A DNA stretch of 64,000 nucleotides. Origin: a virus. The translations under genes and the position numbers were made by a program. Position 1 is the stretch's first letter. Each line of letters begins with the position of its first letter. Where the stretch lies: the UHGV virus genome UHGV-0104313; one strand, written 5' to 3'. Below, one piece after another: positions 34,762-37,224 of this stretch. A model generated the notes under the pieces. It did not search any database. It saw nothing but the letters and a program-made list of their open reading frames with translations, and was not told the origin of the DNA.

Positions 34762-35142
34762 TCAAGTCTTGGAACCATATAGTTCACGTAGCTTTTCTGC
34801 TACTGAAGATACGGCGATTTCACCAGTCGCAGCGCCTACAGTAAGGTCTGCCAGTTCAGGTGAATCAAATACCTGCACCCCGTTACGGCGTAGAAATAGC
34901 AGCGCACTGTTTAGCGCGGTACGCTTATTGGCATCATTGAATATATGCCCTCTCGCCGTAGCCACCAGGTAGGTGGCGGAGACTTCGAAAAGGTCGGTGA
35001 TCTCTTCGTAGGCAACTCTGGCCTGAACTCTCCCGATAATGGCCTCTGCCCTACCCGGATCTGACATTCCCGGCAGGCCGCCGTAGCGGCTTATATTCGC
35101 ATCATGAAGCGCAATAAGTTCTTCCGGTGATATATGCCTCAT
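34762..35142 (-). CDS. doc: Doc toxin (Fic-fold kinase)
   Basis: 126 aa; [25 protein letters not shown]... and Fic motif [11 protein letters not shown]; matches Doc as I know it. Confidence 0.95.
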
Positions 35143-35363
35143 TATCGGTTAACCAGTTCCTTGTTGGTGGAGTCCAGGGTGTCAAACAGGGATGCAAATT
35201 CAGCATCCAGCGCCGCTTTTTTGTAGGCTTCGAAAGTAGCCTTGCTGACAATTACTGCTGGCTCACGGCCTCTGCGGGTGATTTCAACCTCTTCCCCGGC
35301 TTCAACATTGTTGAGCACTTCAGAAAGGTTGCCACGCGCGGTACGGAAGTTAATGGATTGCAT
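35142..35363 (-). CDS. phd: Phd antitoxin
   Basis: [49 protein letters not shown]...; stop overlaps doc start by 1 nt. Confidence 0.95.
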
Positions 35364-35435
35364 AAACACCTCGTGTACTCGTTATGTGTACACAATTATA
35401 AACTTCACAGGCATAAAGCACCAGCACTTTGCAGC

Positions 35436-35825
35436 TTAAATAACCGGACAATCATCAAATTCCCCACTTCGGGCATCATTGATGACATGAGTGATCACAC
35501 CAAAAACAGCATTACTGCCCGTGTATCCATCGTCATCTACTGGTAACGCCTCTTTCTTCCCGGTGCTTAAGTCCTCCAGGTGCTGGCGCGGATACTTCCT
35601 GTATCTCTTTATGCGATATTCACCCTCCATAGCGCACACAAGCAGAGAACCATCAACCGGAGTAAGCGAGGAATCAACCACCAGCAAAGCACCCTGCAAT
35701 ATTCCCTCACGGTGATGGCTATCAGCTGCCCGCATGAAGTAGGTCGCTGAAGGATGTCTAATTATCTGCTGATCAAGAGAAATTCGGCTTTCAACATAAT
35801 CCGCCGCAGGAGAAGGGAAGCCCAT
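35436..35825 (-). CDS. humD: UmuD homologue (LexA-like S24 peptidase)
   Basis: 129 aa, UmuD'-like fold; LexA box 19 bp upstream. Confidence 0.8.
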   Translation of the reverse strand: MGFPSPAADYVESRISLDQQIIRHPSATYFMRAADSHHREGILQGALLVVDSSLTPVDGSLLVCAMEGEYRIKRYRKYPRQHLEDLSTGKKEALPVDDDGYTGSNAVFGVITHVINDARSGEFDDCPVI

Positions 35826-35843
35826 AGCGTTTTACCTCAATAA

Positions 35844-35863
35844 TACTGTTTATTCATACAGTA
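35844..35863. promoter_or_regulatory. LexA (SOS) box
   Basis: tactgtttattcatacagta = perfect CTGT-N8-ACAG palindrome. Confidence 0.85.
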
Positions 35864-35948
35864 TACATTGAAAAGGCATAGTTTGTGAAAGCGGGGTTTG
35901 TAGGCGCGCCACGCTGGGGGCTAATCACATTTCTCCCCCATCTTGCCG

Positions 35949-36221
35949 TTATTTTTTTGGTGCATCCTCGTTCTGATACACCGGATCGCTCCCTTTTGGC
36001 AACTGGAGGCTTAACTGCCGATAGTGCCGTAACCGTTCCATGAAATAGGTGCGCAGATTCTCTGGTTGCTCGCGGGCTACCTGTTCAGCTATGACAGGTA
36101 TGTTCAATCGCTCTTTGTACGCCACACCGCTGGCAGCCAGATCAACGTTAACCTTATCCCGTTCTTCCTGACTTTTAGCTGCAATATTCCAATCGTGCAT
36201 ATCAAATCCCATCCAGAACAA
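35949..36221 (-). CDS. hot: Hot, homologue of DNA polymerase III theta subunit
   Basis: 90 aa; [43 protein letters not shown] closely resembles E. coli HolE. Confidence 0.8.
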
Positions 36222-36649
36222 TTGCGTAACGACTATTATTTAACCAGCAAAGTAACTTTTAATTTTTTTTCTTTTCCCATTGATTTTTGTGCACAGCTTA
36301 TCTGCCTTGCCGTGCGCAGAATCAACTTTTTTCTTCCTGATTTATCCACAAAGTTATGCACTTGCAAGAGGGCCATTTTCTAAATATTGTGATGTTTCAC
36401 AAATGAAATGAATTTTGATTAATGAAGATAAGGAGAAAATTTGAGATGCAATCATGACGTTAATAGATAGGGTCTGCATTACAGACCCCATCCGCATCAA
36501 GGAATTAGCCGTTCCCTGATGTTGTTCCGAAAACATGTGCCGTAAGCTCACGTTAACGACTTTCTTTCACCGAATCCAACTATATAGGGGTTGGGTTTCT
36601 ACGTCAACGTGAGCAAGTGCTCCTTTACATTTGACAAGGAACCACCTTA

Positions 36650-36787
36650 ATGACTGCTTTTTTTCAGTTCCTGAGTGCATTTTTAGATGCGCCTGTTATT
36701 AGCCAGATTCTGGCGATCATCCTCATCATCGTTTTGATTTTGCTTTTAAGGTCAGTAAAAAATGGAATTATGCACTGGCTTACTTAA
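36650..36787 (+). CDS. small hydrophobic peptide (45 aa), candidate membrane toxin-like ORF
   Basis: MTAFFQFLSAFLDAPVISQILAIILIIVLILLLRSVKNGIMHWLT; opposite strand to neighbours; preceded by 13-bp inverted repeat (36541-36554 / 36602-36614). Confidence 0.3.
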   Translation: MTAFFQFLSAFLDAPVISQILAIILIIVLILLLRSVKNGIMHWLT

Positions 36788-36861
36788 TGTTCAGTGAAAC
36801 ATTAAAATCTCCTTGATGTGGAAACAATCATTTTCTGTATGTGCTGGTGGGTACCTGTAGT

Positions 36862-37224
36862 TCAGCTTTCGTTGGCATTTAACTTCGTCTTTGCTTTCTC
36901 CACCAGCAACTTCCAGATGCCTATTTCATTAGCAGCCGCCTTGATGGCGGCATAAAAAGCATCTTGCTGATCGTAACGCTGAATCTGTTTTTTCAGTTTT
37001 GCCTCCACCAATTTAATTTCATTACGTGCTTTCTGAAGCCGCAGCGCCGCCCGGTTACGTCTGTTCTTGTATAGCGCGTTAATCTCTGATAATTGCTTTA
37101 ATTTACCAGCCTGACTGCGGATTATCGCCTCTCTGACTTCTGCCGTGCGTCTCATCTGATCTCTTAAGAGTTCACCGTTTTCGATAATTCTTTCAAGGTG
37201 TTTGATGTGATCTGCAACTCTCAT
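36862..37224 (-). CDS. hypothetical coiled-coil protein
   Basis: 120-aa ORF. Confidence 0.4.
   Translation of the reverse strand: MRVADHIKHLERIIENGELLRDQMRRTAEVREAIIRSQAGKLKQLSEINALYKNRRNRAALRLQKARNEIKLVEAKLKKQIQRYDQQDAFYAAIKAAANEIGIWKLLVEKAKTKLNANES

What the first reader, a model, noticed from the sequence alone, without database searches (positions are those of the whole stretch)
36400..36790. Opposite-strand 45-aa hydrophobic peptide preceded by a 13-bp inverted repeat: candidate type I toxin-like module
Seen: in the ~640-bp gap between hot and the next minus-strand gene lies a plus-strand ORF (36650-36787) encoding a single-helix hydrophobic peptide with a basic C-terminus. Upstream, GCTCACGTT(A/G)ACG occurs as an inverted repeat (36541-36554 / 36602-36614) and GGGTCTG-cattaca-CAGACCC forms another hairpin (36471-36492). 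Inference: a small membrane peptide under RNA-structure or antisense control, like a type I toxin or lysis or superinfection-exclusion peptide.
Basis: partly seen in the sequence, partly recalled or inferred. Interest (0 to 1): 0.45.

Follow-up and report, generated by a model that had tools for sequence, protein, structure and literature searches.

The report
Overlooked membrane-peptide and antisense cassette in P1
Between the hot and pmgV genes of this P1-type phage-plasmid lies a conserved gene for a 45-residue membrane peptide that the P1 reference record does not annotate; it has a promoter copied from the host nrdA gene and a strong opposing promoter inside its leader, an arrangement like RNA-controlled (type I) toxin-antitoxin modules, though toxicity and transcripts are untested.

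Summary
The window is P1-like. The 640-bp hot–pmgV gap carries a plus-strand 45-aa ORF (36650-36787).

- **ORF conservation.** It is the only ORF in the gap that stays intact in all three known lineages: same length, 58-60% aa identity in the most distant, dN/dS 0.45, no indels. P1's annotated minus-strand upfM, upfN and upfO are broken there.
- **Plus-strand promoter.** It is a homologue of the E. coli nrdA promoter. Both DnaA boxes and the -35 are invariant, but the functional NrdR boxes are missing.
- **Leader.** It is about 253 nt, with a strong SD, a mini-ORF and a 21-codon uORF.
- **Antisense promoter.** Its 3' arm holds the -35 of a near-consensus minus-strand promoter (TTGACG-17-TATAGT), identical in 91/91 loci.
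- **Predicted antisense RNA.** About 110 nt, with three stem-loops (z = -5.2).

No known toxin or RNA family matches; there is only a weak Ldr-like motif.

Best reading (about 0.5): a new type I toxin-antitoxin-like cassette. Main rival: a harmless small protein, with the minus promoter serving hot. No expression data exist.

The parts
36266..36395 (+). Homologue of the E. coli nrdA upstream and promoter region. M95666 annotates it as an 'nrdA-like promoter'. The same DNA read on the minus strand gives P1 upfO / E. coli ypaB.
   Evidence: Every one of 5426 E. coli genomes matches window 36266-36380 at ~83%, upstream of nrdA. Identity to E. coli: P7-type 93.7% over 142 bp, P1-type 82.6% over 115 bp, clade C 77.8%. 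Annotation.
36342..36362 (+). Two DnaA boxes, TTATCCACA (36342-50) and TTATGCACT (36354-62). The second abuts the -35.
   Evidence: Invariant in all clades and in E. coli. Consensus match.
36362..36390 (+). Predicted sigma-70 promoter of the peptide mRNA: -35 TTGCAA 36362-67, 17-nt spacer, -10 TATTGT 36385-90. The inferred start is ~36397.
   Evidence: Colinear with the E. coli nrdA -35/-10. The start site is inferred, not measured.
36430..36457 (+). Leader SD AAGGAG (36430-35) followed by a mini-ORF, ATG CAA TCA TGA (36446-57).
   Evidence: 36426-36448 is invariant in all clades. The mini-ORF is ATG-TAA in clade C and ATG CAT TTA TGA in L064.
36454..36519 (+). 21-codon upstream ORF whose ATG overlaps the mini-ORF stop (ATGA).
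   Evidence: Open and 21 codons in 90/91 loci, but with 1 synonymous against 6 amino-acid changes between clades. If it is used, the act of translation matters rather than the peptide.
36466..36493 (.). GC hairpin (core 36470-76 / 36482-88). On the minus strand it is a 13-bp stem followed by UAUCUAUU, so it is the terminator-like 3' stem-loop of the antisense RNA.
   Evidence: Compensatory 36473 T>C / 36485 A>G in clade C. On the plus strand no U tract follows the stem.
36495..36521 (.). Second hairpin: 10-bp stem with a 7-nt loop at 36505-11.
   Evidence: Nine of ten stem pairs are invariant. All three clade C changes at 36507, 36508 and 36510 fall in the loop. A G.U pair on the minus strand would be an A.C mismatch on the plus strand.
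36546..36614 (+). It encloses an inner hairpin (36573-80 / 36590-97).
   Evidence: I7. The fold of 36540-36650 gives -30.3 kcal/mol, z -2.75. Near-invariant across clades.
36579..36607 (-). Antisense promoter TTGACG (36607-02) - 17 nt - TATAGT (36584-79). This is P1's annotated 'PupfN'.
   Evidence: Best sigma-70 match in the gap at 10/12, and again in clade C. The surrounding 41 nt differ only at two loop positions in 91/91 loci. Annotation.
36462..36572 (-). Predicted ~110-nt antisense RNA with three stem-loops. It is complementary to the uORF and to the 5' arm of the leader hairpin.
   Evidence: MFE -43.8 kcal/mol, z -5.17, 0/200 shuffles as stable. The same DNA read on the plus strand gives -32.3, z -3.2. 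The clade C version gives z -3.8. Both ends are inferred.
36650..36787 (+). 45-aa hydrophobic peptide ORF, with SD AAGGAA at 36636-41.
   Evidence: (PGAP WP_000123562.1).
36788..36850 (+). 3' trailer, conserved up to the point where homology with clade C ends. It contains an AT-rich hairpin at 36784-36805.
   Evidence: No convincing terminator and no fold signal.

Best explanation
The segment ~36335-36850 is a self-contained sense/antisense cassette of the type I toxin-antitoxin kind.

(1) A sigma-70 promoter derived from the host nrdA promoter, with its two DnaA boxes, starts an mRNA at about 36397.

(2) The mRNA has a ~253-nt leader. The leader holds a strong SD, a start-stop or mini-ORF, a 21-codon uORF, two hairpins and a long hairpin. 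After it come an SD and the 45-aa ORF.

(3) Inside the long hairpin a near-consensus minus-strand promoter fires toward the plus-strand promoter. The two are face to face, with starts about 175 bp apart. It makes a ~110-nt RNA of three stem-loops that ends at a GC hairpin with an imperfect U tract.

(4) This RNA is fully complementary to the uORF and to the 5' arm of the leader hairpin. It keeps the peptide off by blocking uORF translation, by RNase III cleavage of the duplex, or by transcriptional interference.

(5) When the antisense RNA falls, or the DnaA-controlled promoter rises, the peptide is made. It inserts in the inner membrane as a kinked helix with a basic tail on the cytoplasmic side, and it impairs the cell.

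Shown here: the ORF and its conservation, the promoter homology, the conservation of the antisense promoter, and the fold stability and strand asymmetry. Inferred: both transcripts and their ends, the repression step, membrane insertion and toxicity.
For: ORF conservation:
- It is the only ORF conserved in all three lineages: 45 aa in 88 of 91 loci.
- Window against clade C: 31 nt changes, dN/dS 0.45.
- All residues 20-33 stay hydrophobic. The joint probability of staying open and being this conservative under random placement of the same changes is 0.036.
- There are no indels in the 138-nt ORF, against at least 7 indel events in 323 nt of flanks.
- upfM, upfN and upfO carry stops or frameshifts in clade C.
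- PGAP calls the ORF in some RefSeq plasmids.

Cassette autonomy:
- The P7-type keeps it without hot.
- Clade C keeps it with different right-hand neighbours, including chromosomal islands.

Plus-strand promoter:
- It is colinear with the E. coli nrdA promoter, and the DnaA boxes and -35 are invariant.

Antisense:
- The promoter scores 10/12 and is the best sigma-70 site in the gap. It is unchanged in 91/91 loci.
- It lies in the most conserved stretch of the gap.
- The RNA fold has z -5.17 and is 11.5 kcal/mol more stable than the plus-strand reading, with 8 G.U pairs.
- Changes between clades fall in loops or are compensatory.
- The terminator-like tail exists only on the minus strand.

Peptide:
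- The AlphaFold model is helix-kink-helix with pLDDT 88.
- There is a local LdrD-like motif, L(D/A)APVI..ILA.
Against: - There are no transcript, translation or toxicity data for this locus in the searchable literature.
- No toxin or RNA family matches: Pfam, NCBIfam, PHROGs, PADLOC, PDB and Rfam.
- Only three lineages exist, so the coding statistics are moderate (an open ORF alone has P = 0.14). Covariation is not significant: 1 compensatory pair, with 84/500 shuffles doing as well.
- The antisense hairpin lacks a canonical U tract, and the scanner found no minus-strand terminator. The minus transcript may therefore read through to hot.
- hot is reported to be expressed in lysogens (title of Chikova & Schaaper 2007, cited), so it needs a sigma-70 promoter.
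- The uORF ends 130 nt before the peptide start, and no conserved long-range pairing links them.
- No plus-strand terminator was found.
- The region is dispensable for lytic growth (PMC10695390). That result is uninformative for a maintenance function.
Confidence: 0.5

Rival explanations
1. The ORF encodes a harmless small membrane protein, a lysogenic-conversion, exclusion or regulatory 'moron' expressed from the DnaA-box promoter. The minus-strand promoter is mainly the lysogenic promoter and leader of hot. The sense/antisense overlap then gives at most mutual interference, not a toxin-antitoxin pair.
For: - hot lies downstream on the minus strand with no predicted terminator between.
- hot is reported to be expressed in lysogens (reference title seen).
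- The only informative comparison for promoter conservation, P1-type against clade C, involves two lineages that both carry hot.
- No toxin family matches.
- The ORF is intact in 88/91 loci, which fits any useful gene.
Against: - The P7-type keeps the whole cassette, minus promoter included, without hot.
- The minus RNA folds unusually well (z -5.2), and its last stem is kept by a compensatory change and followed by a U-rich tail.
- The layout of small TM peptide, long structured leader with a uORF, and an internal opposing strong promoter is the recurrent type I layout (established knowledge of hok/sok and ldr/rdl).
Confidence: 0.27
2. The ORF is not translated. The conserved block 36426-36615 is a non-coding element: a structured leader or regulatory RNA of hot, or a protein-binding DNA site at the inverted repeat. 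The downstream ORF is open by chance.
For: - The non-coding block is more conserved than the ORF.
- Random placement of the observed substitutions leaves the ORF open in 14% of trials.
- dN/dS of 0.45 is only moderate.
- The exact P1-type peptide is absent from a 15-billion-protein collection, so gene callers usually skip it.
Against: - The joint test for staying open and conservative gives P = 0.036.
- There are no indels in the ORF while the flanks have at least 7.
- A proper SD sits 8-9 nt upstream and is conserved as AAGGA/GAGGA.
- The hydrophobic core is strictly hydrophobic in all clades.
- Homology between clades extends through the ORF and stops ~60 nt after it.
Confidence: 0.13
3. The P1 reference annotation is right: the gap encodes the minus-strand proteins UpfM, UpfN and UpfO, and the plus-strand ORF is spurious.
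For: They are annotated in AF234172 / NC_005856. UpfM has its own PHROG family built from P1-like records.
Against: - In clade C, upfM has a frameshift and stops, upfN has several stops plus a 19-nt insertion, and upfO has an internal stop.
- In the P7-type the upfN and upfO frames change.
- upfO is simply the reverse reading of the nrdA-promoter homologue, as ypaB is in E. coli.
- None has a Pfam or NCBIfam match.
Confidence: 0.03

Closest known systems
ldr/rdl (LDR loci of E. coli; Ldr toxins, Pfam PF13940)
   Same: Both have a single-helix peptide of 35-45 aa with an Ala-Pro kink motif and a basic/aromatic C-terminus. The local match to LdrD is LDAPVISQILAIILI against LAAPVIAGILASMIV, 8/15 identical. 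From established knowledge of ldr/rdl, both also have a long 5' leader and a cis-antisense RNA encoded opposite the leader rather than opposite the toxin RBS.
   Different: There is no PF13940 hit, while LdrD itself scores 93.7 bits. The profile-profile probability is only 7%. This peptide is 10 aa longer, the predicted antisense is about twice as long, the promoter carries DnaA boxes, and the cassette sits on a phage-plasmid rather than in chromosomal repeats.
hok/sok/mok (parB of plasmid R1; Hok/Gef, PF01848)
   Same: Both are maintenance-type modules on a low-copy replicon. Both have a highly structured toxin mRNA, an upstream reading frame that the antisense RNA targets, and a strong constitutive antisense promoter inside the leader (established knowledge of hok/sok).
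   Different: There is no sequence match. The uORF ends 130 nt before the peptide start instead of overlapping it. The candidate 5'-3' fold-back pairings (36386-400 / 36794-808 and 36430-36 / 36808-14) are not conserved in clade C.
Stress-promoter type I toxins (tisB/istR-1, dinQ/agrB; LexA-controlled)
   Same: In both cases the toxin promoter is tied to a host DNA-metabolism regulator. Here the link is the DnaA boxes of an nrdA-type promoter.
   Different: Those antitoxin RNAs are transcribed divergently and pair over short stretches. Here the antisense is cis-encoded and fully complementary over ~110 nt. The regulator is DnaA rather than LexA. The LexA box in this window (35844-35863) belongs to humD.
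E. coli nrdAB promoter / ypaB region
   Same: Homology is colinear from ~120 bp upstream through both DnaA boxes, the -35 and the -10.
   Different: Homology stops at the -10. NrdR boxes 1 and 2, which lie downstream of the start site and are the functional NrdR site (PMC12176259), are absent. The transcribed part is unrelated to nrdA.

Membership tests
Type I toxin-antitoxin system (generic) | Toxin is a small (<60 aa) hydrophobic peptide with a membrane helix | tested here: met
   45 aa. The mean Kyte-Doolittle score of residues 14-33 is 3.0. AlphaFold gives helix 2-12 and helix 15-44 with pLDDT 88.
Type I toxin-antitoxin system (generic) | A small RNA gene complementary to the toxin mRNA | tested here: inconclusive
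   A conserved 10/12 promoter on the opposite strand lies inside the leader. The predicted RNA has z -5.17. There is no transcript evidence, the 3' end is uncertain, and covariation is weak.
Type I toxin-antitoxin system (generic) | Peptide overproduction arrests growth or kills the cell | not testable with these tools
   Needs inducible expression. Natural C-terminal disruptions (2 IS1 insertions and 1 frameshift among 91 loci, plus P0001-P0004) are too few to interpret.
Type I toxin-antitoxin system (generic) | The RNA represses toxin translation or mRNA stability | not testable with these tools
   Inferred only from ~110 nt of full complementarity to the uORF and leader.
Ldr toxin family (PF13940) | Match to the family HMM above its gathering score | tested here: not met
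   None of the three peptide variants hits at E<=10. The positive controls LdrD, LdrA and LdrB score 86-94 bits.
Ldr toxin family (PF13940) | Detectable remote homology by profile-profile comparison | tested here: inconclusive
   hhalign gives probability 7%, E 0.005, 20 aligned columns and 55% identity. Pairwise BLASTP gives E 0.001 over 15 residues.
Hok/Gef (PF01848) with mok and fold-back control | HMM match; leader ORF overlapping the toxin ORF; conserved 5'-3' fold-back pairing | tested here: not met
   No HMM hit. The uORF stops at 36519 and the peptide starts at 36650. The candidate fold-back arms are not conserved.
E. coli nrdAB-type promoter | Two DnaA boxes next to the -35, colinear with nrdA | tested here: met
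   TTATCCACAAAGTTATGCACTTGCAA is identical in the window, P7-type, clade C and E. coli.
E. coli nrdAB-type promoter | NrdR box pair (boxes 1 and 2) downstream of the start site | tested here: not met
   Homology ends at the -10. Only a 3-mismatch box-0-like site exists at 36378-91, which is not above chance. The box definition comes from PMC12176259.
P1 upfM / upfN / upfO as protein genes | Reading frame kept in relatives | tested here: not met
   Stops and frameshifts in clade C, and frame changes in the P7-type.

The most novel reading that the evidence does not exclude
A phage-plasmid type I toxin whose transcription is wired to the host replication-initiation sensor. The cassette captured the DnaA-box core of the nrdA promoter, and in the P7 lineage re-acquired it at 94% identity, so peptide synthesis would track DnaA status. 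The repressing antisense transcript may also be the lysogenic leader of hot (the theta-like proofreading subunit). That would couple toxin silencing to expression of a replication-fidelity factor. If so, this would be a replication-status-coupled addiction or abortive module of a kind not yet described.
Probability: 0.12. Interest if true: 0.7.

Novelty: new member of a known kind. Interest (0 to 1): 0.45.

Why it matters
P1 is a reference phage and the prototype of a large group of phage-plasmids that carry resistance genes. In one survey here, 229 plasmid records encode this peptide.

If the reading is right:
- Three ORFs of the P1 reference annotation (upfM, upfN, upfO) should be replaced by one plus-strand small gene and one antisense RNA.
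- P1 would carry a second, RNA-controlled maintenance or stress module about 1.3 kb from phd/doc.
- Type I toxins would gain a new family, with a promoter taken from a host replication-linked gene.

The same cassette sits beside type IC restriction systems in E. coli chromosomal islands, so it may matter for island stability too. All of this can be tested with standard experiments in a P1 lysogen.

Tried and rejected
- **Known families.** Pfam, NCBIfam, PHROGs, PADLOC and PDB for the peptide and Rfam for the RNA gave nothing significant. phrog_1184 at E 0.056 was not pursued.
- **Ldr membership.** Rejected: no HMM hit and hhalign probability 7%. Only a local motif remains.
- **Wider relatives.** A peptide-pattern scan of one genome per species found none. 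phmmer over 1.84 billion representatives found only 4 proteins, all variants of this peptide. A 19-mer from the conserved leader found nothing in genome contigs and only the same three lineages in metagenomes. The family is confined to P1-like DNA.
- **NrdR control.** Rejected. The TATATAGGGG near 36581 resembles nrdA box 1 only in one half-site, and it is the -10 of the antisense promoter.
- **hok-like 5'-3' fold-back, and SD sequestration of the peptide RBS.** The partners differ between clades, so nothing is claimed.
- **uORF as a conserved peptide.** Rejected: 1 synonymous against 6 amino-acid changes.
- **TTGACA at 36631-36 as a plus-strand promoter.** No usable -10 follows.
- **Plus-strand terminator.** The 3' trailer has no fold signal.
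- **Literature.** No paper on this ORF was found. Lobocka 2004 and Chikova & Schaaper 2007 are not held.

Full report
**Identity of the window.** The segment 35900-37300 is 99.9% identical to phage vB_EcoM-813R1 and 98.2% identical to phage P1. Using the P1 record as a guide, the local genes all lie on the minus strand:
- doc, 34762-35142
- phd, 35142-35369
- humD, 35436-35825
- hot, 35949-36221
- pmgV, 36862-37224

The finding lies in the 640-bp gap between hot and pmgV.

**Checking the observation.**
- The plus-strand ORF at 36650-36787 exists and encodes 45 aa. It has an AAGGAA Shine-Dalgarno at 36636-41 and an in-frame stop just upstream.
- The inverted repeat is GCTCACGTTAACG (36546-58) against CGTCAACGTGAGC (36602-14), 12/13 complementary.
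- The GC hairpin is GGGTCTG (36470-76), loop CATTA, CAGACCC (36482-88).
- An inverted repeat of that quality occurs in 6% of shuffles of the gap, so by itself it is not remarkable.

**What P1's record says.** AF234172 fills the gap with three minus-strand ORFs: upfO (window 36236-376), upfN (36354-551) and upfM (36567-680). It also annotates the late promoter LPhot and several predicted promoters. M95666 marks a plus-strand 'nrdA-like promoter' with a DnaA box. The plus-strand 45-aa ORF is not annotated in P1. PGAP does call it in some RefSeq plasmids, as WP_000123562.1.

**Relatives.** DNA and tblastn searches found the region only in P1-like elements. They fall into three lineages:
- P1-type, 99-100% identical.
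- P7-type, about 92% identical. It lacks hot, and homology begins near the DnaA boxes.
- A divergent 'clade C', about 77% identical. Homology ends ~60 nt after the ORF.

Wider searches added nothing. A peptide-pattern scan of one genome per species found none. phmmer over 1.84 billion representatives gave only variants of this peptide. A conserved leader 19-mer added no new lineage.

Clade C is followed by a type IC hsdMSR system. It also occurs in E. coli chromosomal islands with the order metG - mrp - S24 peptidase - theta - 45-aa ORF - hsdMSR. The unit from the DnaA boxes to ~36850 therefore keeps its integrity while both neighbours change.

**Which reading frame is real.**
- The 45-aa ORF is intact and the same length in all three lineages. 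Across 91 loci, 88 are intact, two carry IS1 in the last codons and one is frameshifted.
- Between the window and clade C there are 31 nucleotide changes and 18 amino-acid changes, mostly I/V/L/F swaps and R/K. dN/dS is 0.45.
- Residues 20-33 stay fully hydrophobic.
- If the same substitutions are placed at random, the ORF stays open in 14% of trials. It stays open and equally conservative in 3.6%.
- The ORF has no indels, while 323 nt of flanking non-coding DNA have at least seven indel events.
- In clade C, upfM is frameshifted with stops, upfN has several stops and a 19-nt insertion, and upfO has an internal stop.
- upfO is the reverse reading of the nrdA-promoter homologue, exactly as ypaB is in E. 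coli.

I conclude that the plus-strand ORF is the best-supported gene in the gap and that upfM/N/O are probably not genes. The statistics are moderate because only three lineages exist.

**The plus-strand promoter.**
- Every E. coli chromosome matches window 36266-36380 at ~83%, just upstream of nrdA.
- The alignment is colinear through both DnaA boxes (TTATCCACA 36342-50 and TTATGCACT 36354-62), the -35 (TTGCAA 36362-67) and the -10 (TATTGT 36385-90). It then stops.
- The P7-type is 93.7% identical to E. coli over 142 bp, which points to a recent exchange with the host.
- The functional NrdR site of nrdAB lies downstream of the start (PMC12176259). It is not retained.
- By position, the mRNA should start near 36397. 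This is an inference.

**The leader.** From ~36397 to 36649, about 253 nt, the leader contains:
- an indel-rich AT stretch;
- an invariant strong SD, AAGGAG at 36430-35;
- a mini-ORF, which is ATG CAA TCA TGA in P1-type, ATG TAA in clade C and ATG CAT TTA TGA in L064;
- a 21-codon uORF (36454-36519) whose ATG overlaps the mini-ORF stop.

The uORF is open everywhere, but its amino acids are not conserved. The stretch 36525-36599 is 72/75 identical between the window and clade C. That is better conserved than the ORF itself.

**The antisense element.**
- The best sigma-70 match in the whole gap is on the minus strand: TTGACG (36607-02), 17 nt, TATAGT (36584-79), scoring 10/12. Clade C has the same site. 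This is P1's 'PupfN'.
- It is unchanged in 91 of 91 loci.
- A transcript starting near 36572 folds into three stem-loops: -43.8 kcal/mol, z -5.17, with none of 200 shuffles as stable.
- The same DNA read on the plus strand gives -32.3 kcal/mol and z -3.2. Eight G.U pairs in the minus-strand fold would be A.C mismatches on the plus strand, so the structure is better on the minus strand.
- Differences between clades fall in loops (36507, 36508, 36510; 36587/36588) or are compensatory (36473 T>C with 36485 A>G).
- Formal covariation is nevertheless weak: one compensatory pair, with 84 of 500 shuffles doing as well.
On the minus strand it is followed by UAUCUAUU, an imperfect U tract. On the plus strand nothing U-rich follows it. 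The scanner did not call it a terminator, so read-through toward hot is possible.

**Mechanism proposed.** The two promoters face each other, with starts about 175 bp apart. The minus RNA is complementary to uORF codons 4-21 and to the 5' arm of the leader hairpin. It would block uORF translation, create an RNase III substrate, or interfere with plus-strand transcription, and so keep the peptide off. The peptide would be made when the antisense RNA decays or the DnaA-box promoter is activated.

AlphaFold models the peptide as helix 2-12, a kink at D13-A14-P15, and helix 15-44, with pLDDT 88. This fits a single-pass membrane peptide with a basic tail. Everything after 'two conserved promoters and a conserved ORF' is inference by analogy with hok/sok/mok and ldr/rdl.

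**Comparison with known families.**
- No Pfam, NCBIfam, PHROG, PADLOC or PDB match for the peptide and no Rfam match for the RNA.
- LdrD shares a local motif, 8/15 identical, pairwise E 0.001.
- The Ldr HMM does not hit, although LdrD, LdrA and LdrB score 86-94 bits.
- hhalign gives 7% probability.

The cassette therefore works like a type I module on paper but belongs to no described family.

**Rivals.**
- The strongest rival is that the minus promoter mainly serves hot and that the peptide is harmless. hot is reported to be expressed in lysogens (reference title; the paper is not held).
- The P7-type keeps the cassette without hot. It is too close to P1-type for that to prove selection.
- The two readings are compatible: a leaky terminator would give both a short antisense RNA and a hot transcript.
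- A purely non-coding reading is less likely.
- The reference upf annotation is very unlikely.

**Literature.** CRISPRi and deletion surveys list upfN and upfO as non-essential for lytic growth (PMC10695390). Another paper lists the region as variable among P1-like plasmids (PMC9603915). No paper mentioning this ORF, its accession or a type I system in P1 was found.

**Verdict.** The ORF is the best-supported gene in the gap. The repeats are parts of a conserved sense/antisense arrangement. The type I toxin-antitoxin reading is the best single explanation, at about 0.5, but it rests on architecture and not on expression or toxicity data. It is a new member of a known kind, of moderate interest, and readily testable.

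Noticed in passing
window 35826-35948: This element lacks lxr, the 573-bp plus-strand gene that P1 carries between humD and hot. Only ~120 bp separate humD and hot here. The LexA box TACTGTTTATTCATACAGTA is kept at 35844-35863.
   Followed up: partly
window 36236-36376 (minus strand); L065 668-811: P1 upfO is the positional counterpart of E. coli ypaB. Both are the reverse-strand reading of the nrdA promoter region. upfO has an internal stop in clade C, which raises doubt about ypaB-like ORFs as genes.
   Followed up: partly
L004 / L006 (P7-type), aligned to window 36247-36385: In P7-type elements the promoter region is 93.7% identical to the E. coli chromosome over 142 bp, against 82.6% for P1-type. 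This suggests a recent recombination with the host nrdA upstream region.
   Followed up: partly
L088, L089, L090, L093: The clade C block (S24 peptidase/humD-like, theta/hot, the 45-aa ORF, type IC hsdMSR) is inserted next to metG-mrp on E. coli chromosomal contigs of up to 5.7 Mb. A P1-derived segment therefore travels with a type IC restriction system outside P1.
   Followed up: partly
L066 852-1549 (NZ_AP026785.1); proteins P0001-P0004: The C-terminal tail of the peptide is disrupted independently several times: IS1 in the last codons in a P1-type plasmid and apparently in a clade C contig (P0003), frameshifts in A or T runs (P0001, P0004/L010), and a fusion after residue 31 (P0002). The transmembrane part is always kept. 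These could be sequencing errors, an IS1 hotspot, or selection against the full peptide.
   Followed up: partly
window 36791-36814 (minus strand): This is a mirror image of the leader mini-ORF: AAGGAG, 6 nt, then ATG TTT CAC TGA on the minus strand just downstream of the peptide ORF. It is not conserved in clade C.
   Followed up: no
window 36675-36692: A conserved hairpin, GTGCATTTTTAGATGCGC, lies inside the peptide ORF (codons 9-15). The scanner flags it as terminator-like in both the window and clade C. It might attenuate the plus-strand transcript.
   Followed up: no
L007 934-1284 (phage RCS47): RCS47 has hot but replaces the cassette with an unrelated plus-strand 116-aa ORF, and D6 lacks the region. 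The slot next to hot appears to be a variable cargo site.
   Followed up: no
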